Source: Candidatus Multivoradales bacterium | Lineage (GTDB): Bacteria > Acidobacteriota > Thermoanaerobaculia > Multivoradales > JAHEKO01 | DNA: 64,000 nucleotides | Assembly: GCA_965248055.1 (NCBI GenBank) | Contig: CBDFIJ010000004.1 | Coordinates: 2,528,001-2,592,000 of the forward strand | Direction: 5' to 3' | Part shown: positions 36,972 to 56,202 of the stretch, one piece after another | Position numbering within the stretch: position 1 is the stretch's first letter | Layout: every line of letters begins with the position of its first letter | The notes under the pieces: model-generated | What the model was told of the DNA's origin: nothing | Seen by the model: only the letters and a program-made list of their open reading frames with translations | The model's database searches: none | Translations under genes and position numbers: made by a program

Positions 36972-36993
36972 AATCGGATATCGCCATGCGCTT
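36972..36993. promoter_or_regulatory. candidate Rrf2-family operator (copy 1, upstream of the eNOR-type operon)
   Basis: AATCGGAT-atcgcc-ATGCGCTT. Same geometry as the sites at 40614 and 48296. Confidence 0.5.
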
Positions 36994-37021
36994 ACAGTAT
37001 TAACAGAAGGAGATAGATACT

Positions 37022-37222
37022 ATGGATGACGATTCAAGAGACGAGGTTATGACTTCGGCTACCGAATCAGTGCAAGAGGCACAGCCGCCTGTTCCTTTGG
37101 GGCAGCGGTTGTTTGATCGACCGTTCTTGCTGCTGGTGTTGGGCCTGGTGGTGATGTTTGTCTTCTATACCGGTTGGGGGATGGTGGAAGTGATGATGCT
37201 TCCGGACGCGCCACTGCCCTGA
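37022..37222 (+). CDS. small single-TM protein, subunit IIa-like partner of B-family-derived heme-copper oxidase
   Basis: AGAAGGAG RBS. PLGQRLFDRPFLLLVLGLVVMFVFYTGWG. First gene of the oxidase operon. Confidence 0.65.
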   Translation: MDDDSRDEVMTSATESVQEAQPPVPLGQRLFDRPFLLLVLGLVVMFVFYTGWGMVEVMMLPDAPLP

Positions 37223-37314: not shown

Positions 37315-37884
37315 ATGAGTTGGCACACAGCCATCGTTGCGCCGACCGGGGTGTGGTGGAAGCCCGCTGGTCGGCAAGAAAAAGTTTGGATTGCAGTGGC
37401 CTTTGTCTGGTGCATGGTTCTGTTCGCGATGATGCCTCTGTGGCACATCCGCGGTGGACAGAATCCATCGGGGATTCGCAGCAAAGTAACGCCAAAAGCG
37501 TTTGCCGAGCGCACTGCGCGATTCATCGCTGATTATCAAGTTGGCGAAGACGGTGGGTTTCCGCTCGTGGCACCGCCGCCAGGGTCTGACGTCTATATGC
37601 AGGCGACCATGTGGCAGTGGACCCCGGTTTTGCGCCTACAAGAGGGTGCGAGTTACACCATTCACATGTCGGCCTTGGATGTGAATCACGGGTTTAGCCT
37701 GTATCCGGCGAACGTCAATTTTCAGATCATTCCTGGCTATGACTACGGCCTCAAGATGACGCCCAACTCACCAGGCGAGTACAAGATTATTTGTAACGAG
37801 TTCTGCGGGATTGGACATCACCGGATGTTGGGCAAGATCATCGTTGAGCCACGTTCTGCTGGGTCTGAGGAGGCGGCATCATGA
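37315..37884 (+). CDS. heme-copper oxidase subunit II (CuA), single TM
   Basis: DVNHGF and CNEFCGIGHHRM CuA ligands. Confidence 0.92.
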   Translation: MSWHTAIVAPTGVWWKPAGRQEKVWIAVAFVWCMVLFAMMPLWHIRGGQNPSGIRSKVTPKAFAERTARFIADYQVGEDGGFPLVAPPPGSDVYMQATMWQWTPVLRLQEGASYTIHMSALDVNHGFSLYPANVNFQIIPGYDYGLKMTPNSPGEYKIICNEFCGIGHHRMLGKIIVEPRSAGSEEAAS

Positions 37885-39602
37885 CCAAATTCACTGATTT
37901 TGTCTTTCGCCGCTGCCCGGTTACCGGTTTGAAGATTGATCGCACTGCCGAAAAGTTGATTCAGATCAACGCGGTGGTGGCGATTGTCATGTTCTTGTTT
38001 GGCGTAGTGGCTGCCTTGCTGCTGGCGTTGACCCGCTGGCAGGCGGTTCATTTGCTGCCCGCGGACTGGTACTACCGTTTGCTGACGCTGCACGGTCTCA
38101 ACATGTTGATCTTTTTCATCATTTTCTTTGAGATGGCGGTGCTTTACTTTGCCGGGCCGGTGACCCTCAACAGCAGGCTGCCAGCGCCCAAGGTGGGTTG
38201 GATCGGCTTAGGATTGATGGTGATCGGGGCGGTGATGGTGGACTGGATGGTTTTGGCCGGTAAAGCGGATGTGCTTTTTACTTCGTATGTGCCGTTGCGG
38301 GCCGATCCTAATTACTACCTTGGGATCATTCTTTTTGCGGTGGGAGCCCTGATTGTGGTCGGCCATTTCTTTGCCGCACTGGTGGTTGCCAAGCGCGAGA
38401 AGTCCTACGAAGGATCGATCCCGCTGGTCACTTTTGGTGGACTGACGGCGGCGATTATTGCCGTGATCACCTTGCTGCATGGTGCCATTGTCTACATTCC
38501 GACCTATCTTTGGTCCTTGGGGCTGATGCACATGGACCCACAGATCTACCGCTTGATTTGGTGGGGTCTAGGTCACTCGTCGCAGCAAATTAATGTCGCG
38601 GCGATGGTCGCGGTTTGGTATCTGCTCGGTGGGCTCACGGTTGGTGCCGTGGTTTTAAACGAAAAGGTCAGCCGTTGGGCGTTTGTTCTCTACATTGCCT
38701 TTATCTCGATGGCTTCGGCGCATCATCTGTTGGTTGACCCCGGCATGGGTCCGGCGTGGAAGATTTGGAACACCAGTTACGCGATGTACCTGGCGGTTTT
38801 GGCCAGCATGATCCATGGTTTTACCGTGCCGGCCGGCCTCGAGTTGGGCCAACGGATGCAGGGGTTTGTCAAAGGTAAGTTTGAATGGCTGAAGAAGGCT
38901 CCCTGGGGTGACCCAGGGTTCTCCGGCATGTTCCTGTCGTTGATCATTTTCGGATTTCTGGGTGGCATCACGGGTGTGACGCTGGGTACCGAGCAGATCA
39001 ACATCCTGGGACACAACACTCTGCGCATCCCCGGCCACTTTCATGTCACCGTGGTTGGCGGTACCGCATTGGCGTTCATGGCTGTGACCTACTACGTCAT
39101 TCCTTTGATCTTTCAAAAGAAAGTCGCTCTGTGGAAGCTGGCCAAGATTCAGCCGTACCTGTTTGCTGCCGGTATCACCATCATGGGGATGTCGATGACT
39201 TTTGCCGGGATCTTTGGCGTGCCACGCCGTCACTGGGATATTTCGTTTTCCGATGCACCGTTTGGCATGGAGTTTCCGCCCGCGGTGGACATCATGATGG
39301 CTGGAGTAGGCCTGGGTGGTGTGCTGGCGGCAACCGCCGGCATCATCTACGTGTTGGTGGCAGTGATTTCGGTGTTCTTCGGCAGGAAGCTCGATCTGAC
39401 CCAGCTTGAGCCGGGCATGTCGGGTGTGCCGCAAGGCGTTTCCAAGCTGCCGCCTCAGGTGCAAGATGGTGTTTCCGCAGAGGAGGTCCACGACAAAGGC
39501 ACTCCTGGAACCGTTATCTTGGTCGGAGTGTTTCTCACCGTGTTTATTCTTTACTACTTCACCAACTGGAAGATGTTGGCGATGGTGTGGAAGATCGGCT
39601 AA
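37881..39602 (+). CDS. heme-copper oxidoreductase subunit I, eNOR-type nitric oxide reductase
   Basis: All six His ligands present (TLHG, GHSSQQIN, AHHL, GHFH). The H-x3-Y crosslink Tyr is replaced by Gln. Adjacent to nirS. Confidence 0.8.
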   Translation: MTKFTDFVFRRCPVTGLKIDRTAEKLIQINAVVAIVMFLFGVVAALLLALTRWQAVHLLPADWYYRLLTLHGLNMLIFFIIFFEMAVLYFAGPVTLNSRLPAPKVGWIGLGLMVIGAVMVDWMVLAGKADVLFTSYVPLRADPNYYLGIILFAVGALIVVGHFFAALVVAKREKSYEGSIPLVTFGGLTAAIIAVITLLHGAIVYIPTYLWSLGLMHMDPQIYRLIWWGLGHSSQQINVAAMVAVWYLLGGLTVGAVVLNEKVSRWAFVLYIAFISMASAHHLLVDPGMGPAWKIWNTSYAMYLAVLASMIHGFTVPAGLELGQRMQGFVKGKFEWLKKAPWGDPGFSGMFLSLIIFGFLGGITGVTLGTEQINILGHNTLRIPGHFHVTVVGGTALAFMAVTYYVIPLIFQKKVALWKLAKIQPYLFAAGITIMGMSMTFAGIFGVPRRHWDISFSDAPFGMEFPPAVDIMMAGVGLGGVLAATAGIIYVLVAVISVFFGRKLDLTQLEPGMSGVPQGVSKLPPQVQDGVSAEEVHDKGTPGTVILVGVFLTVFILYYFTNWKMLAMVWKIG

Positions 39603-40534
39603 TGGAGAACGACCTGCGGGTCGAAACACCGCCACGATCGGCTCCCCTAAACGGAAGTCGGTTTGCGGTTTGGGCCTTGGTTTGTTGGCTGGCGATCACC
39701 GTCGCTCTCTGGAGTTTGGCCTTCGCTCCTTTTCCCCGGCCCCCCGAATGGCTGGCCGCAGCGCGGCAGGTTTGCTTTGGCACTCTCGCCAATGGGCTTC
39801 CCGACAGTTGGGGTTGGATCACCTTGATCGCTGGTCCTCTGGGTGTGCTGGGTTTCTTGCTGGCGGTGTGGGGTCGAGAGCTAATGCGAGGCCTTGGTGA
39901 CCTGTCGAGGTCGGCAGTTGGGAAAGTGGCGATCATCGCGATGATCGCGATGCCATTGTTCGGCACCATCTGGGTGGGACAACGAGTAGCCGCGGTGCGC
40001 CAGCTCACCTTTGCTCTTGATCAACCAGGACTGCCAACCGACTTTCCCGAAGCCTACCCACGCACCGATCGCGCGGCTCCTAAACTTGGCCTAGTCGATC
40101 AGCAGGGTCGAGTGGTGGAGGTCACAGACCTTATCGGAAGGCCGACGATCGTGACTTTCGCCTATGCCCACTGCGCCACCGTTTGTCCGCGCATCGTCTA
40201 CACCGCTAAACAGGCGATTGAGCAGGCTCCAGGGCTCGATGCTCAACTGGTGGTGGTCAGTCTTGACCCGTGGCGCGACACCCCCAGTTCGCTTCCTGGG
40301 CTGGTCGAGTCCTGGCGGTTGCAGGATCTTCCGGTTCATTTACTTTCCGGCGAAGTGGAGCAGGTTCTGCAAGTCTTGAACGGCTGGAATATGCCGATTG
40401 AGCGGGACCAATCGACCGGTGAAATCACCCATCCAGGACTGGTCTACATCTTGGACTCGAGCGGACAGATCGCCTATACCTTGAATGCCCCCAGCGGCAC
40501 TTGGCTGCAGCAGGCGTTGGAGCGCACAGGGTAA
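39602..40534 (+). CDS. SCO/SenC copper chaperone with N-terminal membrane domain
   Basis: FAYAHCATVCP (CxxxC), VSLDPWRDTP, ITHPG. Three N-terminal TM segments. TAATG coupling to subunit I. Confidence 0.88.
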   Translation: MENDLRVETPPRSAPLNGSRFAVWALVCWLAITVALWSLAFAPFPRPPEWLAAARQVCFGTLANGLPDSWGWITLIAGPLGVLGFLLAVWGRELMRGLGDLSRSAVGKVAIIAMIAMPLFGTIWVGQRVAAVRQLTFALDQPGLPTDFPEAYPRTDRAAPKLGLVDQQGRVVEVTDLIGRPTIVTFAYAHCATVCPRIVYTAKQAIEQAPGLDAQLVVVSLDPWRDTPSSLPGLVESWRLQDLPVHLLSGEVEQVLQVLNGWNMPIERDQSTGEITHPGLVYILDSSGQIAYTLNAPSGTWLQQALERTG

Positions 40535-40613: not shown

Positions 40614-40635
40614 AATGCGATAAGCGCATGGGATT
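40614..40635. promoter_or_regulatory. candidate Rrf2-family operator (copy 2, upstream of nirS)
   Basis: AATGCGAT-aagcgc-ATGGGATT. Over 40611-40635 it is 20/25 identical to the reverse complement of 48296-48320. Confidence 0.6.
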
Positions 40636-40673: not shown

Positions 40674-42602
40674 ATGATGTACCTAGGGAGTACCAACTAT
40701 CGAGCTGCGGTCGCTGGATTGATCGCGATCACAGCGGTTGGTCTGGCTTGTTCCAAGGCCGGAGGAAGCATGTCCGCCGACGCCAAAGCCGGGCAGGAAG
40801 TTTTTGAACGTAACTGTGTCACTTGCCATACCGTGGGGCAGGGCAAGGGCATTGGACCGGACCTCGCGGGAATTGGCGAACGCCGCGATCGTGATTGGTT
40901 GGTGAAGTGGATTGATGACCCGATCGGTATGTCCAAGACCGACCCTCTGGGTCAGCAGTTGCTGACGGAGTGGAACAACATTCCGATGTCCGATTCCAAC
41001 CTCAACGCGCAGCAGATCGATCAGGTGTTGGCGTACATTGACCATGCCGGAAGTGCGGGTGCCACTGAGGTGGCGGATGACACCCCGGTCGAGTTAGACG
41101 AAGAGAAATTTGAACAGGCCAAAGGTATCTACTTTGACCGTTGCGCTGGCTGTCATGGCACGCTGCGCGCCGGAGCTACCGGACCCAATATTCAACCAGC
41201 TCGGACGCAAGAGCTCGGCACCTCGACCATCAAGGCGATTCTCAACAACGGGCTTCCCGGCGGCATGCCACCATGGGGCCGGATGGGAATTTTGAGCCAA
41301 GAAGACATTGGTTTGATGGCGGCCTATATTCAGCAAGAGCCACCGACCCCACCGGGCCTAGACCTGGATGAAATTCGCGAGACTTGGGAGGTCAAGATCC
41401 CGATCGCCGATCGACCCACCGAGCCGCAGACGGAGTACAACTGGGAAGATTTTTTCGGCGTCATTCTGCGCGATGCAGGTCAGGTGGCGATCCTTGACGG
41501 CGACAGCAAGGAATTGATCGAGATCGTCGATACCGGCTTTGCAGTACACATCTTGCGCTCCTCGTCTTCAGGACGCTACTTCTACGCCATTGGCCGCGAT
41601 GGCAGAGTAACCCTGATCGATTTGTGGACCGAGAAACCGACCTTGGTGGCCCAGGTGCAAGGCTGCTATGACGCTCGCAGCGTCGAGGGCAGTAAGTATC
41701 AGGGTTATGAAGACAAGCTGATTATCGAGGGATGTTACTGGCCGCCGCAGTACGTCATCTTTGATGGTTTGACCCTCGAGCCGTTGCAGGTTACGAGCGT
41801 CCTCACTCCGACCTACGACACCAACGAGAAGTTGGAAGAAGTCCGGGTGGCCTCGATCGTCGCCTCTCACTACGATCCGTTGTGGGTGGTCAGTCTCAAG
41901 GAGTCTGGTCATGTGGCGCTGGTGGATTACTCCCAGCCCGACTTCCCGATGGTGAGCAAGATCGCCGCTGAGCGGTTCTTGCACGATGGTGGTTGGGACA
42001 ACGACAAGCGTTACTTCATGGTCGCGGCCAATATGCGTAACCAAATCGCGGTTGTTGACGTCAAAGAAAAGAAGTTGGTCACCAAATTTGAGACCGGCAT
42101 TAAGCCTCATCCTGGCCGTGGCGCCAATTGGTTGGATCCAGAGTACGGCTGGGTTAACGCCACCACCCATTTGGGTGAAGGCAAATTGGCGGTCTACGGA
42201 GCGGATCCTGAGGGCAGTCCGGAACACGCTTGGAAGGTGGTACGGGAAATCGAACTACCTTCTTCGGGAAGCTTGTTCTTGAAGACCCATCCTTATTCCA
42301 ACTGGGTATGGATGGATTTTTCCCTCAGTGCTGACGAAAACCTGACCCGTCAAGTGTGTGTCTACTCCAAGCAAGAGGCCAAGGTGCACAAGTGCTGGCA
42401 GCCCACTGACTACGGTCGCACTGTCCACTTCGAGTACAACCAAGCCGGTGACGAGGTGTGGATCTCAGGTTGGGACCCTGAGGGTCAACTGGTGGTCTAC
42501 GACGACAAGAGCCTGGAAGAGATCGCCCGGATTCAGGGTGATTGGCTCAAGACGCCAACCGGCAAGTTCAACGTTTACAACACCGCGCACGACGTCTACT
42601 AG
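40674..42602 (+). CDS. nirS: cytochrome cd1 nitrite reductase with an extra N-terminal cytochrome c domain (lipoprotein)
   Basis: IYFDRCAGCHGTLRAGATG, ILRDAGQV, GFAVHILR, FLHDGGWD, PHPGRGAN, LFLKTHP, TPTGKFNVYNT motifs. Extra CVTCH and a GLAC lipobox. Confidence 0.93.
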   Translation: MMYLGSTNYRAAVAGLIAITAVGLACSKAGGSMSADAKAGQEVFERNCVTCHTVGQGKGIGPDLAGIGERRDRDWLVKWIDDPIGMSKTDPLGQQLLTEWNNIPMSDSNLNAQQIDQVLAYIDHAGSAGATEVADDTPVELDEEKFEQAKGIYFDRCAGCHGTLRAGATGPNIQPARTQELGTSTIKAILNNGLPGGMPPWGRMGILSQEDIGLMAAYIQQEPPTPPGLDLDEIRETWEVKIPIADRPTEPQTEYNWEDFFGVILRDAGQVAILDGDSKELIEIVDTGFAVHILRSSSSGRYFYAIGRDGRVTLIDLWTEKPTLVAQVQGCYDARSVEGSKYQGYEDKLIIEGCYWPPQYVIFDGLTLEPLQVTSVLTPTYDTNEKLEEVRVASIVASHYDPLWVVSLKESGHVALVDYSQPDFPMVSKIAAERFLHDGGWDNDKRYFMVAANMRNQIAVVDVKEKKLVTKFETGIKPHPGRGANWLDPEYGWVNATTHLGEGKLAVYGADPEGSPEHAWKVVREIELPSSGSLFLKTHPYSNWVWMDFSLSADENLTRQVCVYSKQEAKVHKCWQPTDYGRTVHFEYNQAGDEVWISGWDPEGQLVVYDDKSLEEIARIQGDWLKTPTGKFNVYNTAHDVY

Positions 42603-42628
42603 TCGAGCGAAGTTGTCTTTCGTCCTTT

Positions 42629-42660
42629 GGGCGGGTGCTTTGCACCCGCCCTCCTTTTTT
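42629..42660 (+). terminator. intrinsic terminator after nirS
   Basis: GGGCGGGTGC-ttt-GCACCCGCCC followed by tccTTTTTT. Confidence 0.85.
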
Positions 42661-42681
42661 GTGGATCTCTACCGCGGAGTA

Positions 42682-43161
42682 GTGGAGTTGAAGTTGCCAA
42701 AGAGAAGGCTCTTTGGTGCTTGTGCCCTTGTTGGCTTGTTAGGCGGTTGCTCGGGTTCACCGCCGGCCGATGGGTCCATCAACGGTAGCTACCAACATCG
42801 TCATCAAGTGTTTGTCTTCCACGGCAGTGAACCCACCGAGGTTGAGGTGATTGACCGTTTGACTCTGTCGCGGGAGGGCAACGAGTTGACCATGGATCTG
42901 ACCCTGTACACCATGTCAGGAGAGACCTGCAGTGCTCAGGGTCGAGTCAAGTGGGCCGGTCCTGGTTATCGCTTGGAACGGAATGACAAGCGGGCAGAGA
43001 CAGGAGATTGTGACCTCCGGTTGGTTCCAAAACCCGGCACGCTCGTTTTGCGCTCTGCTGGATCACACTGCGGAGAGATTTTGTGTGGGGGTGCGGTGAA
43101 CCTCAATCCAGGCGAGCAGCCACTCACGTTCGTTCGCCAACCGAGGCAGGGACCATCCTAG
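42682..43161 (+). CDS. hypothetical lipoprotein
   Basis: GTG/TTG start after the terminator. Lipobox LLGGC and four further Cys. Confidence 0.6.
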   Translation: MELKLPKRRLFGACALVGLLGGCSGSPPADGSINGSYQHRHQVFVFHGSEPTEVEVIDRLTLSREGNELTMDLTLYTMSGETCSAQGRVKWAGPGYRLERNDKRAETGDCDLRLVPKPGTLVLRSAGSHCGEILCGGAVNLNPGEQPLTFVRQPRQGPS

Positions 43162-43706
43162 TCGGCAGGCTGGTAGACCTTGAGTTCGCCGTCCTCCTGG
43201 TCGAGTAGAACCAAGGTGATGCGGTCCTTAGCCAGGGTTACTTCACGGTCGAGAAAATAGCGAGGAATGCGGGCGAACGCGCTTTGTGCTGTTTGTGCCA
43301 TCCCCGGAGGTTCGATGGGTGTCATCGAAACCTCCAGGCGCTTGACCCCTGGGTCGATAGTAACCTCTTGATCGACAATCAAAGGTCGATCTCCGCGTAC
43401 CCCGCCGGGGTCTGCTTGCACCGTGATCACTTCATAACCGTCGAGTGTTGCGCGGACTTGATAGGTGGGCGAGATTCCTTCACAGACAGTCGGTTGTCGC
43501 ATGTGAAACGGCAGGGCTTCTAGTTCCTCCGGGCTGCGGTCCCGGCACACTTCTAGACGCGTGTTGACGGTGCGCAAAGACAGTCTCAGAGTTGCCTCAC
43601 CAATCGAACGGCCAAAGGGAATCTGGCCGGCGAGCACCACCGCTGCGAGCAAAGACGCGGTGACCAAGACGCGAGCTGCTGTCGAAAGCCAACTAGAGCT
43701 CGACAT
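43158..43706 (-). CDS. membrane-anchored hypothetical protein coupled to the cytochrome b fusion
   Basis: ATG at 43706 overlaps the upstream gene end. One N-terminal TM and the motif C-x6-ELEALPFHMRQPTVC. Confidence 0.7.
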   Translation of the reverse strand: MSSSSWLSTAARVLVTASLLAAVVLAGQIPFGRSIGEATLRLSLRTVNTRLEVCRDRSPEELEALPFHMRQPTVCEGISPTYQVRATLDGYEVITVQADPGGVRGDRPLIVDQEVTIDPGVKRLEVSMTPIEPPGMAQTAQSAFARIPRYFLDREVTLAKDRITLVLLDQEDGELKVYQPAD

Positions 43707-45333
43707 ATTGCACCTTGCAGTCACGCTCGACGCTGATCTCTCTTTCAATCACCACCGGTTCGAGCTCTTCGAGTTGGGCGCGAAACGCCGCTACTGCTCG
43801 CCGTGCTTGCGCGCCTTCACCCGGAGCGAAGGCCGCCACCTTGACCCTGCGCTTGTCGACCCGAGTACGCAGTTCGGCTTCACGGTCGCGGTACACTCTT
43901 TCGTTCAACCAGCGGGGCCCCTCCCGGTATAGGCAGTCGCGTTCGGGACAGGTCAAAAGCATCACGCCACCGGCTCCGGAGCGCAAAAGATATTCAATCG
44001 CCGAAGTGTGAACCGAGCCTGAGCAGCCACTGGTGAGGGGTAGAAAGTCAGAACCCGGAGGCGGCTGCCAGCGATCGCCCAGGCCATGGCCACAGGGAAT
44101 TACGATCACTTGATCCGCAGACGGTTGGTGGCGGTTGAGAAAATCTTTGACCGCTTGGAGCTGATCGCGCCCAGATCGACCGGCAGGACCAACCACCATC
44201 GGAGCGCAGGACCCCGAGCAGATGGCGCAGCCGGTACAAGCATCTGGGTTGACGCGGGCAACCAGTTCCGAGTGTGATGACGGAACCGGACTGGCGACCA
44301 TCGAGATCGCGTCGTAAGGACAATCAAGGTAACACTGGGCGCACCCGGTGCAGTGCTCTTCGTCGACTACCGAGGTTTCAATGGTGTGAGTCTTGGGGCG
44401 CCACCACCAGGGCACCGAGAACAAGACCACTGCGACACCCACCCAGGTGAGCAGGTGTACTAAAGGCGTCACCGAACGCGCCAGCGGCAACCAAAAGGCG
44501 TAGAACAGATCTAACGGCACGTTCACGGGCACCGCCAGCACGTCTGCCGCTGGGGGTAGGGGTACCGGAACGACAATCGCCAGAATTCCAACCGCCGCGA
44601 TAGCTCCATAGTGCAGGCCTCGCGGTGGTAAAAATTGAGCCCTAGCGACTTGGGAGATGTGAAGCCAGTAGAGAACTGCGATCCCCAGGGGCAGCGCCAC
44701 ATGGAGAAACAGGTTCATGAAGAAAAACGACCTGCCGATGGTTTCAGGCTGGGTGAAGGAACGGGTAATCGGCTCGGAGAAGATCGGTAGCAGGTCGGCG
44801 AGGCGTGCACCTTCCAGCGCCACCAACTGTCCTTGAACATCCCAGGCCATCACCAAGCCGGTCCAGCCGCACATCAACAGCACCGCCATCGAAATTAAGC
44901 CGCTGATCCAAGCCATTGCCCGAGGCCCCCAAGATCGCCCTGAGAGAAACATGCGAATTGCGTGAATCGCCACCGCAACCACCACCAAGTCAGCGGCGTA
45001 GCGATGTATCGAGCGAATCCAGCCTCCGTGCCAAGTGGCGTCCAGTCGTGAGACCGATCCGTAGGGGTCGGAGACTTTGTACAGCAGGAATAAGTAGACA
45101 CCGGTTACCAACGTGACTAACAAGAAGGTCATCGCCAGCGGCCCGGTCTTGTAGAGGGGGTTCCAATTAGCGGTGAACACCCGATTGAACCAAGAGTCGA
45201 TTGCTAGCAGCGCTCGATATGGAGCGCCTGCTCCGCTTGGAAGCGGCACTCTTTGCACGGCACCTGGAGTCGCCGTGATCCGCTCTCTGGGGAGACTGTT
45301 TTGACCTCGATGTTGGGGATCCGTTTCACTCAT
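43693..45333 (-). CDS. cytochrome b + 2x[4Fe-4S] ferredoxin + MvhD/FlpD-like [2Fe-2S] fusion protein
   Basis: GWIRSIHRY..IHAIRM and FLHV..LHI (four heme b His). CTGCAQCYLDCP and CTGCAICSGSC. C...GCSGSV...GVMLLTCPERDCLYREG. Confidence 0.85.
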   Translation of the reverse strand: MSETDPQHRGQNSLPRERITATPGAVQRVPLPSGAGAPYRALLAIDSWFNRVFTANWNPLYKTGPLAMTFLLVTLVTGVYLFLLYKVSDPYGSVSRLDATWHGGWIRSIHRYAADLVVVAVAIHAIRMFLSGRSWGPRAMAWISGLISMAVLLMCGWTGLVMAWDVQGQLVALEGARLADLLPIFSEPITRSFTQPETIGRSFFFMNLFLHVALPLGIAVLYWLHISQVARAQFLPPRGLHYGAIAAVGILAIVVPVPLPPAADVLAVPVNVPLDLFYAFWLPLARSVTPLVHLLTWVGVAVVLFSVPWWWRPKTHTIETSVVDEEHCTGCAQCYLDCPYDAISMVASPVPSSHSELVARVNPDACTGCAICSGSCAPMVVGPAGRSGRDQLQAVKDFLNRHQPSADQVIVIPCGHGLGDRWQPPPGSDFLPLTSGCSGSVHTSAIEYLLRSGAGGVMLLTCPERDCLYREGPRWLNERVYRDREAELRTRVDKRRVKVAAFAPGEGAQARRAVAAFRAQLEELEPVVIEREISVERDCKVQYVEL

Positions 45334-48220: not shown

Positions 48221-48295
48221 GATTCCTCCGAATGTCTCTTGGTGTACGGTTAGTTATAGGATCAGCATGCGTGGGAGGTTTTTGTCTTTTTAAGT

Positions 48296-48317
48296 AATCC
48301 CATGCGAGAATAGGATT
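48296..48317. promoter_or_regulatory. candidate Rrf2-family operator (copy 3, between divergent porin and rrf2)
   Basis: Near-perfect palindrome AATCCCAT-gcgaga-ATAGGATT ending 5 nt before the rrf2 ATG. Confidence 0.65.
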
Positions 48318-48322
48318 TTATC

Positions 48323-48733
48323 ATGCTTTCGCAAACAGCGATCCACGCCGTCAACGCAATTCAGAAGCTAGCGCAAGCTAGTGAAGGTCAATATTTTGGG
48401 GCCTCTGCCTTGGCTCGCAGCATTGGTGCTCCGGAAAATTATTTGGGAAAACTGCTGGCAATTTTGGGGGAAAACCAAATTCTCGAATCGCGCCGCGGAC
48501 TCGGTGGGGGATTTCGTTTGGCCCGACCCGCAGAAGAGATCACCGTCTACGAAGTGGTCGCCCCGTTTGATCGACTGCATGCCTGGAAGTCCTGCGTCCT
48601 TGGCCTCAGCGACTGCTCCGACGACGAACCATGTGCCCTCCATGACATGTGGAAAATCGGTCGTGAGCGATGCCTGGAGATGCTTGAGAACTCCACCGTC
48701 GCCGATTTACGCGACTCGCCCAAACAAGCCTAG
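48323..48733 (+). CDS. Rrf2-family Fe-S transcriptional regulator
   Basis: YLGKLL, SRRGLGGGFRLARPAEEIT and three Cys (CVLGLSDCSDDEPCALH). Confidence 0.92.
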   Translation: MLSQTAIHAVNAIQKLAQASEGQYFGASALARSIGAPENYLGKLLAILGENQILESRRGLGGGFRLARPAEEITVYEVVAPFDRLHAWKSCVLGLSDCSDDEPCALHDMWKIGRERCLEMLENSTVADLRDSPKQA

Positions 48734-48757: not shown

Positions 48758-48856
48758 GGAAGCGCTCGGGGGCTGGTGCCTCCCGCGGTCTTCAAAACCG
48801 TTGTCCCGTTCCGGATCGGCTCGGGGGGTGGGTTCGATTCCCATGCGCTTCCGCCA
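48758..48856 (+). tRNA. selC: tRNA-Sec(UCA)
   Basis: 8-bp acceptor GGAAGCGC/GCGCTTCC-GCCA, anticodon loop CTTCAAA, long variable arm, GGTTCGATTCC T-arm, 99 nt. Confidence 0.95.
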
Positions 48857-48945
48857 CCTAAGACACTAAAAATAAGTCACTTACAAGAGAGTTACTGTCG
48901 TGGTGCGGTGCCCGGTGGAAATGATTGCATGCCCGATTTGCGCTC

Positions 48946-48967
48946 CATGGCACACTCATGGCACACT
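48946..48967 (+). repeat. 11-nt tandem direct repeat, candidate integrase arm-type sites
   Basis: CATGGCACACT twice, between the tRNA 3' end and the integrase start. Confidence 0.6.
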
Positions 48968-48998
48968 TGTTCTCAACAATTGACGAGTACCGGCACCG

Positions 48999-50057
48999 AT
49001 GGCAACAATCCAAAAAAGGACTTCAAAGAGCGGTCACACAAGTTATCGGGTCATGGTTCGCCTCAGAGGCTACCCAGTGCAGTACGCGACCTTCGACCGA
49101 AAGACGGATGCCAAGCGCTGGGGGCAGCAGACTGAATCTGCAATCAAAGAAGGTCGGCACTTTCGCACCAGTCAAGCCAGAAAGCACACTCTCGCAGAGC
49201 TTGTCGACCGGTATTTTGAAGAGGTACTCCCGACGAAGTTGGCGGTAACTGCCAGGGAACAGCGGCGCCATCTTGCCCGGTGGAAGCAGGAACTCGGTGC
49301 CTATGTTCTGGCGGATGTGACCCCACCACTCATTGCACAGAAGCGAGATGCGCTCGCGCGTGGCACGACGGTGCGACACGAAAAACGAGCACCAGCCACA
49401 GTCAACCGATACCTCGGCGCCTTGAGCCATGCGTTTTCGATTGCGGTAAGAGAGTGGGAATGGATGGAGCACAACCCAGTGCGACGGGTCCGCCGCCTCA
49501 AAGAACCCCGAGGTCGAGTGCGCTTTCTTTCGGACGAAGAACGCATCCGACTACTCACCGTCTGCAAGGAAAGTTCGGATCGCCGTCTCTATCCACTGGT
49601 GGTACTCGCACTGTCCACGGGAGCGCGCCAAAGAGAGTTACTGCAACTCTCTTGGAAGGACGTAGATTTTATTCGTGGCGTTGCGGTCGTGCACCACACG
49701 AAGAACAATGAACGGCGAGCACTGCCACTTTCTGAATTTGCACGCGGTGTCTTGCAGGAGTTGAAGAAAGTGGAGCGGTTGGATTCGAATCTGGTTTTTG
49801 CTGGAGTGGATGGCAGAGCTCTTTTTCCGCGCAAGCAATGGGAGCGAATATTGCGGGAAGCATCAATTGAAGATTTCAGGTTCCATGACTTGCGGCACTC
49901 CGCTGCTAGCTATCTGGCCATGAACGGTGCGACGCTGGCTGAGATCGCTGAGATTCTCGGACATAAGACACTGGCGATGGTGAAGCGATATGCACATTTG
50001 ACCGAGCAACATACCAGTGACGTGGTTGCGCGGATGAACGACAAGATCTTTGGCTAG
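48999..50057 (+). CDS. int: tyrosine recombinase/integrase
   Basis: STGARQRELL, TKN, FHDLRHSAAS, LGH...RYAH catalytic residues. N-terminal arm-binding region. Confidence 0.96.
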   Translation: MATIQKRTSKSGHTSYRVMVRLRGYPVQYATFDRKTDAKRWGQQTESAIKEGRHFRTSQARKHTLAELVDRYFEEVLPTKLAVTAREQRRHLARWKQELGAYVLADVTPPLIAQKRDALARGTTVRHEKRAPATVNRYLGALSHAFSIAVREWEWMEHNPVRRVRRLKEPRGRVRFLSDEERIRLLTVCKESSDRRLYPLVVLALSTGARQRELLQLSWKDVDFIRGVAVVHHTKNNERRALPLSEFARGVLQELKKVERLDSNLVFAGVDGRALFPRKQWERILREASIEDFRFHDLRHSAASYLAMNGATLAEIAEILGHKTLAMVKRYAHLTEQHTSDVVARMNDKIFG

Positions 50058-50281
50058 GCGCTGCATGCACGACGGCTTTCGAGCCACGCATTGAACGCAT
50101 CTACGTCAATGAGGACACGGCGCCCCACGCGCACGAGCGCCTGATTTAGTCCATTCTCCTCAGCATTGAAGATGAGCCACCGAAGGCTACCTTCGGTGAT
50201 TGCGGGTACCGTGTCGATACCGACAGGTCGCGAGGCATCAACAATCTGTTGGACAGTACGAAGTTTTTCAAATTGAATCAT
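50054..50281 (-). CDS. excisionase-like small DNA-binding protein
   Basis: GAGGAG RBS. EGSLRWLIFNAEENGL..ALVRVGRRVLIDVDAFNAWLE. Convergent with int and overlapping it by 4 nt. Confidence 0.8.
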   Translation of the reverse strand: MIQFEKLRTVQQIVDASRPVGIDTVPAITEGSLRWLIFNAEENGLNQALVRVGRRVLIDVDAFNAWLESRRACSA

Positions 50282-50462
50282 GTTCCGTGTCTCCTCAGTT
50301 GCGAGGGTATGCACACGGCTACTGCGTTGTCAAGAAAAATGACTTGTAACTAATTGATACTAAATGAGTTAGGGAGTCTTGTGTTACCCCAAACACCCCT
50401 CTGTTCTAGGTTTGTAGGGGTAAGGAGAGGAGATAAGTTGCCTACTACCAATACATTAAGGA

Positions 50463-50840
50463 GTCTCTCGGGTCGTCGGACTAGCGTCCGACTCCCGGTC
50501 TCTCTCCTCAGCAAACAAATGCGCACTTCGGAAAGTTGATTTCGTCGAAAGCCCGGGAGTCGGACGCACGACGTTCCAACCACCGGCGGACCGGTGGGGA
50601 ACCTCGGCTACCGACGACCCGAGAGACGAAACTACGTTAATAGCAAGATGCTGAGGAGGTCTTCCGCCGTCCCCCTTGACGGAATCCCGAGTACGGGATG
50701 CACGTATTTACCTGTCGCTTCACTCTCTCGTCCCCGCAACCCCACTGAACAGGTAAGGGTTGCGGATAACTCGATTCGCTCAAGCGACAGGTAGCCGCAG
50801 CTCAAGGTCGAATGTTATTAGCAAGATAGCAAACCTCAGT
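50463..50840. ncRNA. highly structured non-coding element (RNA or ssDNA), two tandem pseudoknotted domains
   Basis: Perfect stems 50463-79/50611-27 (17 bp), 50484-98/50553-67 (15 bp), 50504-13/50649-58 (10 bp, pseudoknot), 50709-20/50782-93 (12 bp) and 50734-42/50757-65 (9 bp). Repeated GTTAWTAGCAAGAT. Family and strand unknown. Confidence 0.65.
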
Positions 50841-50844
50841 ATGT

Positions 50845-51018
50845 ATGGATTACCTCGAAATGACTGAACTACAGTTGCGCGAGTTGCTTGAAAACGCCAA
50901 CAGCGATGACGTTGTTGACTTTGTCTCAGGCGAGCTTCGTCAGTCGTACGCAAACGGTGCGCGTATGCGTGATGGCAAGCGTGGGCGTGCACGGCATCGC
51001 ACCTCGCAACCCGCATAG
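50845..51018 (+). CDS. small hypothetical protein (57 aa, not in the ORF track)
   Basis: MDYLEMTELQLRELLENANSDDVVDFVSGELRQSYANGARMRDGKRGRARHRTSQPA. Amphipathic acidic helices and a basic tail. Confidence 0.55.
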   Translation: MDYLEMTELQLRELLENANSDDVVDFVSGELRQSYANGARMRDGKRGRARHRTSQPA

Positions 51019-51153
51019 GCGGGCATGGCAACCTCCATTCGTGGGGGTTGTCTGCGGCTCCCCACCCACCCGGACGGCGGATATCAAGACGGAAGTGTCG
51101 ACAAGACACAGAGGGGTGCGGCATACTCGGCTACGTTCCGCAAAGGAGTTCGC

Positions 51154-52425
51154 ATGTATCGATCGAGGTGTGTTCGTTTTTGGGTGTTTTTCGCCGCGCT
51201 GTGGGTTGCGCTGTCGACATCGAGTAGTGCGCAGACACTCAAGAAGCTCAATCCGTTTGCTGATGTTCCGAAAGTCCATGTGACGCTCGAACACCCACCC
51301 CAGCTTTCACTTGAAATCGAGCGGGTGGCGTTCGCCACCGCTGAAGGAGAGTGCGCCGACGATTTTGTCGACGCCCTAATCTCCGACTTCGTGAGCAACG
51401 GTGTCGAAGTTATCGACCGGGCACACCTTGAGGCGTTACTGGCTGAGCACGAGTTCAGCCTCAGTGGTGTGGTTGATCGTGAGAGTGCATTGGAGCTTGG
51501 CAGGATTCTCGGCCCCACCACGCTCATCTTCGTCAAGATTCGACGGTGCACCACTGAGAAACAATCGCAGAACAACCACCGAACCACGTATACCGGGCGA
51601 GCCGTCTACGAATACATCTCCAAGACCATCGGGTACGTCAAAGGGTCGATTCAAATCGTTGATCTCGCCACTGCACGGATTCACTCAGCCCGTACCGTTG
51701 ATCAGACGGTACAACGACAGAATACAAGCTCAGGCGGCCAACCAGCTCATCCATCGGCGTACGACACTATCGATGCTGCTCTGCAGCAGGCCACCGGACG
51801 GGTGCATCGACTCTTTTTTCCATGGGTGGAGACCGAGTGGTTTCCATACTTCGATGACAAAGACTGCAATCTCAAGCTCGCCTACAACCTCATTCGCGCC
51901 AATGACATGTCAGCGGCTATCGAACAATCCGAAACGAACCTTCAAGCGTGCCAGGCCTTTCGAGAAAAAAAGCCCAAGCTCGTTGCCCGTGCTTACTACA
52001 ACCTTGGTGTCGTTCGTTGTCTAGCCGACCAATTCGATGAGGGGATTGAAGCACTCAATGAATCGCTTCAGCTACGACCCAACGAAATCACTTCATCGGC
52101 GCTTGCCACCTGCCGGAACAACTGGAAGGCTGCCGAACAGATGGCGACGTTTGATGCTGAGGCCACAGCCGAGGCGGTCGAACTTGAAAAGGCTGCCGAG
52201 GAAGACCCGAGCGAAGAGCTGGCGAAACTTGAAAAGCTCCGCGCACGAGACCTCATTACTCAAGACATTTATGCCAAGAAGGTTGGAGCCATTATTTCGC
52301 GCTCTGGCCCACCCGGCGAAACACCGGAGGATCAGCTAGCGAGTCTTAAGAAACTCCTCGGCATAGGTTTGATCTCTGAGGAGCTTTACGAGCGCAAGGT
52401 TTCAAAAATATTGTCGGATCTCTAG
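51154..52425 (+). CDS. secreted CsgG/HfaB-like + TPR + tandem SHOCT-domain protein
   Basis: AAGGAG RBS and signal peptide. VEVIDRAHLEALLAEHEFSLSGVVD...LGRILG, AYYNLGVV, LAKLEKLRARDLITQDIY, LASLKKLLGIGLISEELY. Confidence 0.75.
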   Translation: MYRSRCVRFWVFFAALWVALSTSSSAQTLKKLNPFADVPKVHVTLEHPPQLSLEIERVAFATAEGECADDFVDALISDFVSNGVEVIDRAHLEALLAEHEFSLSGVVDRESALELGRILGPTTLIFVKIRRCTTEKQSQNNHRTTYTGRAVYEYISKTIGYVKGSIQIVDLATARIHSARTVDQTVQRQNTSSGGQPAHPSAYDTIDAALQQATGRVHRLFFPWVETEWFPYFDDKDCNLKLAYNLIRANDMSAAIEQSETNLQACQAFREKKPKLVARAYYNLGVVRCLADQFDEGIEALNESLQLRPNEITSSALATCRNNWKAAEQMATFDAEATAEAVELEKAAEEDPSEELAKLEKLRARDLITQDIYAKKVGAIISRSGPPGETPEDQLASLKKLLGIGLISEELYERKVSKILSDL

Positions 52426-54474: not shown

Positions 54475-54483
54475 CGAGTAGCA

Positions 54484-56193: not shown

Positions 56194-56202
56194 CGACAAG
56201 TA

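What the first reader, a model, noticed from the sequence alone, without database searches (positions are those of the whole stretch)
43158..45333. Rieske-less cytochrome b fused to ferredoxin and MvhD domains, with a dedicated partner protein
One polypeptide joins a four-His diheme cytochrome b, two [4Fe-4S] motifs and an MvhD/FlpD-type [2Fe-2S] domain, which is known from heterodisulfide-reductase complexes. No Rieske, cytochrome c1, hydrogenase or hdr gene is nearby. An overlapping gene encodes a membrane-anchored 2-Cys protein. Its position inside the nirS/eNOR cluster suggests an uncharacterised trans-membrane electron conduit, either for respiration or for reductive metal-site assembly/repair.
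Basis: partly seen in the sequence, partly recalled or inferred. Interest (0 to 1): 0.7.

Follow-up and report, generated by a model that had tools for sequence, protein, structure and literature searches.

The report
Membrane electron module tied to eNOR
Two overlapping genes encode a membrane protein that can carry electrons across the membrane, and it is inherited together with one type of nitric oxide reductase (eNOR) in several bacterial phyla, so it looks like an overlooked part of that enzyme system.

Summary
Window 45333..43693 (-) encodes a 546-aa b6-like dihaem cytochrome b fused to a 2x[4Fe-4S] ferredoxin domain and an MvhD/FlpD domain. Its stop overlaps the start of a 182-aa gene, P2 (43706..43158), which has one TM helix and a periplasmic beta-sandwich.

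The pair belongs to the eNOR gene set (small TM ORF, subunit II, subunit I, polytopic SCO).
- 70 of 80 related loci have eNOR or SCO genes adjacent. The other 10 are cut by contig ends.
- In 401 genomes of the window's own phylum, the same 6 hold a strong match to the fusion and an eNOR-type subunit I.
- In 281 Gemmatimonadota genomes, 62 hold both. One holds only a decayed remnant of the module. Three hold a divergent eNOR-like clade without it.

P2 is fused to the C-terminus in 101 of the 150 best family representatives. A complex model scores 0.83 against 0.00 for controls. One variant adds a C-terminal cytochrome c.

No hydrogenase, Hdr or Rieske gene was found in the window or among the conserved neighbours.

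Best reading: an eNOR-dedicated transmembrane electron conduit. Its direction, its cytoplasmic partner, and whether it serves catalysis or assembly remain inferred. In the searched library it is noted only in passing, in one preprint and one table row.

The parts
43693..45333 (-). Fusion protein P0001, 546 aa: cytochrome b, 2x[4Fe-4S] ferredoxin and MvhD domains. The true start may be GTG near 45249, because the closest relative begins there.
44647..45168 (-). b6-like cytochrome b four-helix core, residues 56-229. Haem ligands are H110/H211 (periplasmic-side haem) and H124/H225 (cytoplasmic-side haem).
   Evidence: Pfam. PDB profile search: best match cytochrome b6, E 8.5e-23. His invariant. 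Helices.
44404..44622 (-). Two further TM helices (E 238-254, F 290-310) with a conserved periplasmic loop (D275, F280-W281-L282-P283). No family match.
   Evidence: The loop lies in the predicted P2 interface.
44203..44370 (-). 2x[4Fe-4S] ferredoxin domain, residues 322-377 (C328/331/334/338 and C366/369/372/376). It resembles the C-terminal ferredoxin domain of HdrA.
   Evidence: HdrA chains at E 3e-13.
43762..44109 (-). MvhD/FlpD-type domain, residues 409-524. Candidate [2Fe-2S] ligands are C414, C437, C462 and C467.
43158..43706 (-). P2, 182 aa: TM helix 4-27 and periplasmic beta-sandwich 38-178. Invariant residues are R41, C54, H68-M69-R70, C75, G102 and G120. In most relatives this part is fused to the C-terminus of the cytochrome b protein.
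37022..37222 (+). Conserved 66-aa single-TM ORF directly upstream of subunit II. Candidate small eNOR subunit.
   Evidence: tblastn E < 1e-3 in 63 of 80 loci
37315..37884 (+). eNOR subunit II (cupredoxin, CuA motif CNEFCGIGHHRM)
   Evidence: Found in 63 of 80 loci.
37881..39602 (+). eNOR subunit I (B-family-like HCO with Gln at the cross-link Tyr position)
   Evidence: Found in 64 of 80 loci.
39587..40534 (+). SCO1/SenC protein (CATVC and His) with a conserved ~150-aa polytopic N-terminal domain that has one invariant Cys (C63)
   Evidence: Found in 61 of 80 loci.
40674..42602 (+). NirS with two N-terminal cytochrome c domains. It is inserted between the eNOR genes and the module in this genome, and is adjacent in only 1 of 80 loci.
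48323..48733 (+). Rrf2-family regulator. Relatives lie next to the module in 38 of 80 loci.

Best explanation
P0001 and P2 together form one membrane redox protein. In most relatives it is a single polypeptide. It is a dedicated accessory of the main eNOR clade.

**Anatomy.**
- A b6-like dihaem cytochrome b with six TM helices.
- A cytoplasmic chain of two [4Fe-4S] clusters and one MvhD-type [2Fe-2S] cluster.
- A seventh TM helix, the N-terminus of P2.
- A periplasmic beta-sandwich that folds back onto the periplasmic loops of the cytochrome b.

This gives a five-cofactor wire across the membrane.

**Mechanism I commit to.** A cytoplasmic reductant reduces the MvhD cluster. Electrons then pass through the two [4Fe-4S] clusters, the cytoplasmic-side haem and the periplasmic-side haem. 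They leave at the P2-capped periplasmic face to a c-type cytochrome or to the CuA domain of eNOR. NO reduction is thereby supplied directly from the cytoplasm, independently of the bc1/quinol route. The Rrf2 regulator found next to the module in many loci would fit NO-responsive control if it is NsrR-like. That assignment is recalled and was not tested here.

**Shown.** The domains and ligands, the co-inheritance with eNOR, and the fusion of P2 with the cytochrome b protein.

**Modelled, not shown.** The P2 docking site.

**Inferred.** The topology, which follows from homology to b6 and from the fused forms. Also the outward direction, the donor and acceptor, and the physiological role.

The general claim, an eNOR-dedicated transmembrane redox module, I put at about 0.85. 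The specific outward supply route I put at about 0.4.
For: **Domains and ligands.**

**Synteny.**
- 70 of 80 loci have eNOR I, eNOR II or SCO adjacent, in three different gene orders: 49 divergent, 12 collinear, 8 convergent, 1 other. The varied order argues for selection on the linkage rather than inherited order.
- The 10 loci without these genes all end within 3 kb of the pair on one side.
- Five of those 10 genomes were searched, and all 5 have eNOR subunit I on another contig.

**Genome level.**
- Own phylum: 6 of 401 genomes have a strong fusion match (E <= 1e-75). The same 6 are the only ones with eNOR-type COX1. In each case the two lie on the same contig; in five they are 0.9-1.2 kb apart. 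In G314 they are about 4.7 kb apart, and COX1 there is split into two frames and cut at the contig end.
- Gemmatimonadota: 63 of 281 genomes have the fusion, 65 have COX1, and 62 have both.
- The single fusion-only genome holds a truncated remnant.

**P2 belongs to the protein.**
- It is the next gene on the same strand in 73 of 73 loci where it was found.
- It is fused in G282 and G003 (hhalign probabilities 98.5 and 98.9).
- It is fused in 101 of the 150 best representatives.
- The complex model scores 0.83 in three runs against a best control of 0.00. Runs agree in at least 95% of contacts and partner pLDDT is at least 79. The mark was reached by 116 of 157 solved complexes and 2 of 215 mismatched pairs. 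The calibration holds only roughly here, because I used my own alignments and haems rode along.
- The interface is coherent with an N-in TM helix and a periplasmic cap.

**Electron-transfer role at the periplasmic end.**
- Variant P0258 carries a C-terminal class I cytochrome c (E 4.8e-12 to 7zs2; E 1.6e-8 to 1w2l_A, titled 'cytochrome oxidase subunit II').
- Table A3 of PMC8756737 lists an ORF that combines a cytochrome c domain with cytochrome b6, FeS and FlpD domains (passage seen).
- The Ferrigenium preprint (section 31 read) reports two cytochrome b/FeS proteins in an eNOR operon, one of them with FAD and NADH domains. [quoted passage not shown]
- Distant split relatives sit in Rieske/cytochrome b/cbb3 respiratory clusters.
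Against: - No donor gene is conserved in the cluster. No ORF cluster beyond the core occurs in more than 9 of 80 loci.
- An outward route conserves no energy, and no reason is known why eNOR should need it.
- Purified two-subunit R. marinus eNOR is active with TMPD/ascorbate (PMC11214002, section 6 read), so the module is not needed for catalysis itself.
- A Gln-type eNOR-like clade with a CuA motif lacks the module in 3 of 281 genomes. G674 and G595 were examined; only G674's neighbours were scanned with Pfam. G665 was not fetched.
- Only 1 of 268 family members checked has the fused cytochrome c.
- P2 has no evident cofactor site. Its His-Met-Arg loop is not among the confidently placed contact residues of the modelled interface, and its role is unknown.
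- The module always travels with SCO, which also fits an assembly role.
- The ferredoxin domain is poorly modelled (pLDDT below 50), so the distances between cofactors were not checked.
Confidence: 0.42

Rival explanations
1. Assembly or repair factor. The same outward conduit delivers single electrons to the periplasm to reduce Cu(II) or Fe(III). It could also keep SCO and the CuA site competent, so that CuA and the non-haem FeB of eNOR can be loaded. P2 would act as the periplasmic hand-over or docking domain. This would work like the eukaryotic dihaem ferric/cupric reductases; that comparison is recalled and was not tested here.
For: - The module is co-inherited with an unusual SCO that has a conserved polytopic N-terminal domain (61 of 80 loci).
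- The module-less eNOR-like clade also lacks an adjacent SCO.
- P2 has an invariant Cys-X13-His-Met-Arg-X4-Cys loop in the 62-sequence alignment. This ligand set is reminiscent of copper sites, but that is a recalled comparison.
- Purified eNOR works without the module.
- The strict, near-obligate co-occurrence fits a biogenesis factor.
Against: - The Cys pair is absent in 34 of 101 fused P2 domains. Both Cys are missing together in G282. That pattern suits a structural disulfide better than a metal or thiol site.
- The P2 fold has no clear relative. The best fold-search hits are generic sandwiches at Z 8.4 or below, within the background range the tool states.
- A variant with a fused cytochrome c and respiratory-cluster relatives without CuA enzymes point to electron transfer between redox proteins.
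- The Ferrigenium preprint says 'all four proteins' of its operon were in a published proteome. That is a weak argument.
Confidence: 0.25
2. Inward, energy-coupled route. Quinol is oxidised at a b6-like periplasmic-side pocket under the P2 cap. One electron goes to the high-potential side (cytochrome c, CuA, eNOR). The other is driven through the two b haems to the cytoplasmic FeS/MvhD chain, where it reduces ferredoxin or NAD(P)+. This would be a Rieske-less bifurcating module that harvests part of the large driving force of NO reduction.
For: - MvhD and HdrA-type ferredoxin domains are otherwise known from bifurcating Hdr complexes. NCBIfam HdrA2 matches residues 320-528 at 59 bits, far below its cut-off. 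HdrA and MvhD chains match.
- The periplasmic cd and ef-like loops are highly conserved. P2 is modelled onto those loops. From recalled bc1 geometry, this is roughly where the Rieske head docks.
- Distant relatives are encoded directly after a Rieske gene and a full-length cytochrome b.
- The Ferrigenium preprint proposes quinol:NAD+ coupling for its FAD/NADH-bearing paralogue.
Against: - No high-potential one-electron acceptor is evident at the pocket. P2 has no cofactor motif.
- No PEWY-type motif or subunit IV/Cytochrom_B_C match was found for residues 236-312.
- The immediate acceptor potential, not the NO/N2O couple, sets the bifurcation energetics. This is an inference.
- No cytoplasmic flavoprotein is conserved nearby.
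Confidence: 0.18
3. Quinone-linked side route unrelated to eNOR catalysis. For example, a cytoplasmic-donor:quinone oxidoreductase or a redox sensor that is merely co-regulated with eNOR.
For: The cytochrome b fold normally binds quinones. The cluster is often next to an Rrf2 regulator (38 of 80 loci).
Against: - Co-regulation alone does not explain the identical genome sets in two phyla.
- It does not explain the decay of the module where eNOR is gone.
- It does not explain the fused cytochrome c variant.
Confidence: 0.1

Closest known systems
Cytochrome b6 of the b6f complex and cytochrome b of bc1 (PF00033)
   Same: Four-helix core, four His ligands with 13-residue spacing, and b6-like cd region. 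Best PDB matches are cytochrome b6 chains (E 8.5e-23).
   Different: - No Rieske, cytochrome f/c1 or subunit IV partner gene.
- No Cytochrom_B_C match.
- The C-terminus continues into cytoplasmic FeS domains.
- A beta-sandwich subunit is modelled onto the conserved periplasmic cd and ef-like loops. From recalled bc1 geometry, this is roughly where the Rieske head would dock.
HdrA2 C-terminal ferredoxin plus MvhD module, and MvhD of Mvh-Hdr complexes
   Same: The same two domains in the same order (NCBIfam HdrA2 positions 571-775). The MvhD Cys motifs align.
   Different: - No HdrA flavin domain.
- No HdrBC or hydrogenase in the window or in conserved neighbours.
- The score is far below the family cut-off (59 against 1100 bits).
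- The module is membrane-tethered.
Dihaem cytochrome b with cytoplasmic FeS modules (NarI-NarH, HdrE-HdrD, QmoC, DsrMK). Recalled; QmoABC paper PMC3333476 seen only in a search listing.
   Same: The same logic: two b haems spanning the membrane, wired to cytoplasmic iron-sulfur clusters.
   Different: - A different cytochrome b fold family (NarI/HdrE type, not b/b6). This is recalled and was not tested.
- Those systems reduce a cytoplasmic substrate with quinol electrons. Here no cytoplasmic terminal enzyme is linked.
Cytochrome b/[Fe-S] proteins of the Ferrigenium straubiae eNOR operon (bioRxiv 10.64898/2026.01.22.701106, section 31 read)
   Same: Cytochrome b plus FeS proteins encoded with eNOR II, eNOR I and sco1. 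The authors propose a supercomplex with eNOR.
   Different: - Described there as 'rather unusual' and as possible Ferrigenium marker genes.
- The word 'MvhD' does not occur in the text.
- The passages I read (section 31 and 'find' passages) describe no P2-type partner and no cross-phylum survey. Whether their 'eNOR scaffold protein' is P2 is unknown.
- I could not fetch their sequences, so homology to P0001 is inferred from the description.
Rieske/cytochrome b clusters with an extra cytochrome b-ferredoxin gene and an MvhD gene (family f41 of the window's phylum; loci L086, L087)
   Same: 28-30% identical split version of the same three domains, also next to a haem-copper enzyme.
   Different: - Split into two genes.
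- Accompanied by a Rieske gene, a full-length cytochrome b, dihaem cytochrome c and a cbb3-type oxidase.
- No eNOR in those genomes at E <= 1e-60. No P2 was looked for.

Membership tests
Cytochrome b/b6 (PF00033) | Profile match above the curated cut-off | tested here: met
   59 bits against a cut-off of 27.2. Cytochrome b6 chains at E 1.1e-17 with the single sequence and 8.5e-23 with the profile.
Cytochrome b/b6 (PF00033) | Four His haem ligands, two in helix B and two in helix D, spaced by 13-14 residues | tested here: met
   H110/H124 and H211/H225. All are invariant in 23 of 23 sequences.
Rieske/cytochrome b complex (bc1 or b6f) | Rieske iron-sulfur protein and cytochrome c1/f encoded with, or acting with, the cytochrome b | tested here: not met
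   - No Rieske match inside the window.
- None among 54 window ORFs scanned.
- No extra conserved neighbour in more than 9 of 80 loci.
- The genome's canonical Rieske/cytochrome b pair lies about 1.1 Mb away.
Rieske/cytochrome b complex (bc1 or b6f) | C-terminal cytochrome b domain or subunit IV with a PEWY-type Qo motif | tested here: inconclusive
   No PF00032 hit, and no subunit IV chain among the 60 best PDB profile hits shown. By eye, the loop PLDLFYAFWLPLAR is only vaguely similar to the recalled PEWY region.
MvhD/FlpD (PF02662) | Profile match above the cut-off and the Cys ligands of the [2Fe-2S] cluster | tested here: met
   50.1 bits against 22.3. C437, C462 and C467 align with MvhD motifs. 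C414 is invariant; its equivalence to the N-terminal MvhD Cys is inferred.
Mvh hydrogenase / heterodisulfide reductase system | MvhAG hydrogenase or HdrABC genes linked to the MvhD domain | tested here: not met
   - None in the window.
- None in the ORFs scanned by Pfam in the related loci sampled.
- HdrA2 model: 59 bits against a cut-off of 1100.
eNOR (neighbouring subunit I) | Gln in place of the cross-linked active-site Tyr (PMC8756737, section 2.7.1 and Table A4, passages seen) | tested here: met
   Window GHSSQQ against ba3 GHPIVY.
eNOR (neighbouring subunit I and II) | B-family-like subunit I with haem and metal His ligands, and a CuA-bearing subunit II | tested here: met
   Best PDB relatives are ba3-type oxidases. 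The motifs LTLHG, HH and PGHFH align. Subunit II has CNEFCGIGHHRM. Haem As, FeB and NO-reducing activity are not testable here.
SCO or PCuAC copper chaperones (for P2) | Thioredoxin-like or cupredoxin-like fold with the family's metal motif | tested here: inconclusive
   No Pfam or NCBIfam hit and no PDB sequence hit. Fold searches give only generic beta-sandwiches, best Z 8.4. An unlisted family is not excluded.

The most novel reading that the evidence does not exclude
The module and eNOR form one supercomplex. In it, quinol oxidation under the P2 cap is split. One electron goes to NO reduction. The other is pushed through the b haems to the HdrA/MvhD-like clusters, where it makes reduced ferredoxin or NAD(P)H. 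This would be a Rieske-less, bc-type electron bifurcation powered by nitric oxide respiration. It would also be a new route of energy conservation or reverse electron flow in denitrifiers and iron oxidisers.
Probability: 0.15. Interest if true: 0.9.

Novelty: new variant of a known kind. Interest (0 to 1): 0.68.

Why it matters
eNOR was characterised biochemically only recently, and it is widespread in soil and sediment phyla that matter for N2O budgets. It is drawn as a two-subunit enzyme fed by cytochrome c.

In the genomes sampled here, the main eNOR clade comes with a five-cofactor transmembrane redox protein, a novel periplasmic domain, an unusual SCO and a small TM ORF. If so, either its electron supply or energy coupling, or its biogenesis, differs from the textbook picture.

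Public annotation calls the protein 'hydrogenase iron-sulfur subunit' or 'ferredoxin'. That could suggest hydrogen metabolism where these loci show no hydrogenase genes.

The tight linkage gives a ready marker for this eNOR clade. It also gives a concrete candidate to test for how eNOR is wired into metabolism. That includes the idea, raised for Ferrigenium, that NO reduction is coupled to NAD(P)+ or ferredoxin reduction.

Tried and rejected
**Searches that gave nothing useful**
- P2 against Pfam, NCBIfam and PDB sequences: no match.
- P2 fold searches: no Foldseek hit at E <= 1e-3. VIA-align's best was Z 8.4 on the HGSNAT luminal domain, followed by generic sandwiches. This is not informative and is no evidence that the fold is new.
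- Protein atlas: only unnamed 'hypothetical protein' clusters, mostly Gemmatimonadota.
- 'Longer' homologue search (957-2730 aa): none found, which is weak evidence.

**Side checks**
- The N-terminal 360 aa of the 1019-aa ORF in L084 is not SCO. It is probably an over-extended ORF in 72% GC DNA.
- In-frame TGA in the f41 relatives: read with TGA=U. It turned out to be an ordinary stop between a cytochrome b-ferredoxin gene and a separate MvhD gene, not selenocysteine.
- Haem A synthesis link: rejected as the main idea. No ctaA or ctaB cluster occurs among conserved neighbours. The genome's CtaA lies about 1.1 Mb away.
- A shared operator upstream of the fusion gene: none convincing.

**Limits of what was run**
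- First all-against-all ORF clustering timed out. It was redone with a greedy ORF set that is noisy in high-GC DNA.

**Literature**
- Searches found no paper linking eNOR with MvhD, apart from the two passing mentions cited.
- Supplements of the PNAS paper and of the preprint were not read. They may show operon maps.


Full report
**1. What is there**

The minus strand between 45333 and 43158 carries two overlapping genes.

*The first gene* (45333..43693, 546 aa, P0001) matches three Pfam families:
- Cytochrome_B, residues 56-228, E 7.4e-16.
- 4Fe-4S ferredoxin models, residues 322-377.
- FlpD/MvhD, residues 436-524, E 3.3e-13.

The sequence shows two His pairs spaced by 13 residues (H110/H124 and H211/H225) and two CxxCxxCxxxC(A)P motifs. 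In an alignment of 23 relatives sharing 48-81% identity, all four His, all eight ferredoxin Cys, C414, C437, C462, C467 and C539 are invariant.

Against solved structures:
- The N-terminal part is closest to cytochrome b6 (profile E 8.5e-23).
- The middle part is closest to the C-terminal ferredoxin domain of HdrA (E 3e-13).
- The end is closest to MvhD. C437 aligns with the CSG motif, and C462 and C467 align with the GC..DCH motif.

An AlphaFold model has moderate confidence (mean pLDDT 68.6; the ferredoxin part is below 50). It gives six TM helices: A 63-83, B 101-130, C 137-162, D 196-229, E 238-254 and F 290-310.

*The second gene* (ATG at 43706, 182 aa, P2) has no family match. Its model is confident (pLDDT 95.1): one TM helix (4-27) followed by a beta-sandwich.

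**2. Surroundings**

Upstream on the plus strand lie:
- A 66-aa TM ORF, 37022-37222.
- A CuA-type subunit II, 37315-37884.
- A B-family-like haem-copper subunit I, 37881-39602. It has Gln where oxidases have the cross-linked Tyr. A published eNOR phylogeny uses this Gln to define eNOR (PMC8756737, passages seen).
- An SCO protein with a polytopic N-terminal domain, 39587-40534.
- nirS with two N-terminal cytochrome c domains, 40674-42602.

Further points:
- The fusion gene diverges from an Lrp/AsnC regulator gene. An Rrf2 regulator lies at 48323.
- No hydrogenase, Hdr, Rieske or cytochrome c1 family was found in 54 window ORFs.
- The genome's Rieske/cytochrome b pair and its CtaA lie about 1.1 Mb away.

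**3. Link to eNOR**

*Family size and naming.* A word-indexed search gave 745 relatives among the 7,999 candidates scored. The 120 listed have the same three domains. Where a source names them, it calls them 'hydrogenase iron-sulfur subunit' or 'ferredoxin'.

*Loci.* A scan of species-representative genomes found 339 stretches that encode a relative, and 80 loci were fetched. They come mostly from Gemmatimonadota, Thermoanaerobaculia and other Acidobacteriota. Single loci are labelled Myxococcota, Binatia, Schekmanbacteria, Lambdaproteobacteria and others.

tblastn with the window's proteins found these in the 80 loci:

| Protein | Loci with a match (of 80) |
|---|---|
| Subunit I | 64 |
| Subunit II | 63 |
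| SCO | 61 |
| P2 | 73 |
| Rrf2 | 38 |
| nirS | 1 |
| Lrp, EamA, porin, TonB receptor, post-nirS ORF, ORF 36304-36609 | 0 each |

*Gene order.* Seventy loci have at least one eNOR or SCO gene next to the fusion, in four layouts: divergent 49, collinear 12, convergent 8 and other 1. The 10 loci without them all end within 3 kb of the pair on one side. Five of those 10 genomes were searched, and all 5 hold an eNOR-type subunit I (67-76% identity) on another contig. Beyond this core, no ORF cluster is shared by more than 9 loci.

*Genome level, own phylum.* In 401 genomes, a match to P0001 at E <= 1e-75 occurs in 6. An eNOR-type subunit I at E <= 1e-60 occurs in exactly the same 6. In each genome the two lie on the same contig, and in five they are 0.9-1.2 kb apart. 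In G314 they are about 4.7 kb apart, and subunit I there is split into two frames and cut at the contig end.

*Genome level, Gemmatimonadota.* In 281 genomes, 63 hold the fusion, 65 hold subunit I (E <= 1e-100), and 62 hold both.
- The one fusion-only genome (G531) has only residues 363-540 of the fusion, plus P2 and SCO fragments. This is a decayed remnant.
- The three subunit-I-only genomes carry a 46-48% identical clade. G674 and G595 were examined; G665 was not fetched. Their subunit II has a CuA motif. Only G674's subunit I was read, and it still has the Gln signature. In G674 the neighbours are a UbiA-family gene and Rrf2, with no SCO or module.

The link therefore holds for the main eNOR clade, not for every Gln-type enzyme. 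Kin are not independent, so these counts describe the samples and are not statistics.

**4. P2 is part of the same protein**

- Wherever it was found, P2 is the next gene on the same strand (73 of 73 loci).
- In G282 and G003 it is fused to the C-terminus of the MvhD domain (hhalign probabilities 98.5 and 98.9).
- An exhaustive search of 1.84 billion cluster representatives gave 2,868 hits at E <= 1e-3 and 375 at E <= 1e-30.
- Of the 150 best representatives, 101 carry a P2 domain at the C-terminus. That includes 97 of the 102 that are 600 aa or longer.

The fused form is thus the commoner architecture among these representatives, and the window has a split version.

This also fixes the topology, provided the FeS domains are cytoplasmic. 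The TM helix of P2 then runs from inside to outside, and the sandwich is periplasmic.

A complex model agrees:
- It was run with two haems riding along and with my own alignments.
- It scored 0.83 in three runs against 0.00 for the best of three controls.
- The runs agree in at least 95% of contacts, and partner pLDDT is at least 79.
- The mark was reached by 116 of 157 solved complexes and 2 of 215 mismatched pairs. The calibration holds only roughly here.
- The P2 helix lies against helices B and E. The sandwich lies on the periplasmic cd loop (186-196) and on the conserved 264-283 loop.
- This supports binding but does not show it.

Conserved residues of P2:
- In the 62-sequence alignment, R41, C54, H68-M69-R70, C75, G102 and G120 are invariant.
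- Among the 101 fused domains, the Cys pair with the His-Met-Arg motif is present in 67, the motif alone in 22, and neither in 12. G282 lacks both Cys together.
- I read the Cys pair as a structural disulfide that staples the His-Met-Arg loop.
- That loop is not among the confidently placed contact residues of the modelled interface, and its role is unknown.

**5. Hints to function**

- One representative (P0258, 792 aa) continues after the P2-like sandwich into a class I cytochrome c. This domain matches 7zs2 at E 4.8e-12 and 1w2l_A ('cytochrome oxidase subunit II') at E 1.6e-8. It is 1 of 268 family members checked for CxxCH outside the ferredoxin motifs.
- Table A3 of PMC8756737 lists another ORF that joins a cytochrome c domain to cytochrome b6, FeS and FlpD domains.
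- The Ferrigenium straubiae preprint (section 31 read) describes two cytochrome b/FeS proteins in an eNOR operon with sco1. One of them carries FAD and NADH domains. [quoted passage not shown]
- Distant relatives (28-30% identity) occur in five genomes of the window's phylum that lack eNOR. Two of them, G139 and G232, were examined. Both have a cytochrome b-ferredoxin gene that lies directly after a weak Rieske match and a full-length cytochrome b, near a dihaem cytochrome c. In G139 a separate MvhD gene follows an ordinary stop, and a cbb3-type oxidase lies nearby.

Together these place the family in respiratory electron transfer around haem-copper enzymes. They do not place it in hydrogen or heterodisulfide metabolism.

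**6. How it most likely works**

*Shown.* There is a possible chain of one [2Fe-2S] cluster, two [4Fe-4S] clusters and two b haems from cytoplasm to periplasm. It has a periplasmic cap domain and is inherited with eNOR.

*Inferred.* Electrons flow outward, which is thermodynamically downhill: from low-potential clusters through the b haems to cytochrome c or CuA. I commit to a supply line from a cytoplasmic reductant to eNOR, at about 0.4.

*Rivals.*
- The same conduit used for reductive loading of CuA or FeB together with the unusual SCO: about 0.25.
- Inward, bifurcation-type flow from quinol to ferredoxin or NAD(P)+: about 0.18.
- An eNOR-unrelated quinone-linked role: about 0.1.

*Against my choice.*
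- No donor gene is conserved.
- The route conserves no energy.
- Purified R. marinus eNOR works with artificial donors as isolated (PMC11214002, section 6).
- The module always travels with SCO.

The general claim, an eNOR-dedicated transmembrane redox module, I put at about 0.85.

**7. Comparison and novelty**

The parts are members of known families: the cytochrome b/b6 N-terminal domain, the 2x[4Fe-4S] ferredoxin domain and MvhD. The whole is not a bc1/b6f complex, because no Rieske or cytochrome c1/f partner was found. It is not an Mvh/Hdr component either, because no hydrogenase or Hdr is linked and the HdrA2 model scores 59 bits against a cut-off of 1100.

It works like the membrane modules that wire dihaem b cytochromes to cytoplasmic clusters (NarI, HdrE, QmoC; recalled). 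It differs from them in three ways: a b6-type core, a new periplasmic domain and a different client enzyme.

Six searches of the held library turned up only two mentions: the preprint's remark for Ferrigenium and one table row in PMC8756737. The PNAS eNOR paper's text does not contain 'ferredoxin'. Its uses of 'cytochrome b' do not concern the operon. Supplements were not read.

I class the finding as a new variant of a known kind, with interest 0.68.

Noticed in passing
window 37022-37222 (+): A 66-aa ORF with one TM helix directly upstream of eNOR subunit II. It is conserved at the same place in 63 of 80 related loci (tblastn E < 1e-3). It is a candidate third eNOR subunit and is too short for default ORF lists.
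   Followed up: partly
window 39587-40534 (+): The eNOR-linked SCO has a conserved ~150-aa polytopic N-terminal domain (W41-W42, R60, invariant C63-F64, G70-L71-P72, G76-W77, P84) with no Pfam match. This differs from the single-anchor SCO that I recall.
   Followed up: partly
window 40674-42602 (+); L013 5340-7169: NirS carries two N-terminal cytochrome c domains. PMC8756737 calls this architecture unique to Chloroflexi (section heading seen). L013 is labelled Candidatus Multivoradales, not Chloroflexi, and holds a 74% identical copy.
   Followed up: no
window 40615-40629; 36983-36994; 48294-48307: Palindrome ATGCG-N5-CGCAT upstream of nirS. Related half-sites lie upstream of the small ORF/eNOR operon and of the Rrf2 gene. 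This is a candidate Rrf2 (NsrR-like) operator. No convincing copy was seen upstream of the fusion gene.
   Followed up: partly
window 48758-63348: tRNA-SeC (48758-48856) is followed by a tyrosine integrase (48999-50057). Further on are TraG/TrwB-like coupling proteins, a relaxase-like gene, RadC and HTH genes, in DNA of lower GC. This looks like an integrative element inserted at tRNA-SeC, right beside the eNOR/nirS cluster.
   Followed up: partly
window 36304-36609 (+): This 101-aa ORF overlaps tRNA-Ala (36445-36520, -) and has no relatives in the loci. It is probably not a gene.
   Followed up: yes
window 42358-43161 (+): The ORF after nirS overlaps nirS by 245 nt if read from its first start. 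Its later part has a lipoprotein-like signal (LLGGC). It is not conserved in any of the 80 loci.
   Followed up: partly
L086 (G139) 2861-11102; L087 (G232) 8414-14086: Clusters with a dihaem cytochrome c, a weak Rieske match, a full-length cytochrome b and a cytochrome b-ferredoxin gene. L086 also has a cbb3-type oxidase and a separate MvhD gene. Here the module sits inside a Rieske/cytochrome b complex operon, in genomes without eNOR.
   Followed up: partly
L098 (G531) 8381-10266: A decayed cluster. It holds only the C-terminal third of the fusion, a P2 gene, fragmented SCO and part of Rrf2. The genome has no eNOR subunit I at E <= 1e-100.
   Followed up: partly
L096 (G674) 6228-10433; L097 (G595): A second Gln-type eNOR-like clade, 46-48% identical in subunit I, with a CuA motif. 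In L096 it sits next to a UbiA-family (haem O synthase-like) gene and Rrf2. It has no SCO, fusion or P2.
   Followed up: partly
window 37881-39602 compared with L004: Subunit I is 82% identical to that of a Thermoanaerobaculia MAG. Only 6 of 401 sampled genomes of the window's own phylum have the cluster at all. This suggests transfer between phyla.
   Followed up: no
protein P0258 (792 aa, unnamed representative): A family member whose periplasmic end carries a class I cytochrome c after a P2-like sandwich that lacks the Cys and His-Met-Arg motifs.
   Followed up: partly
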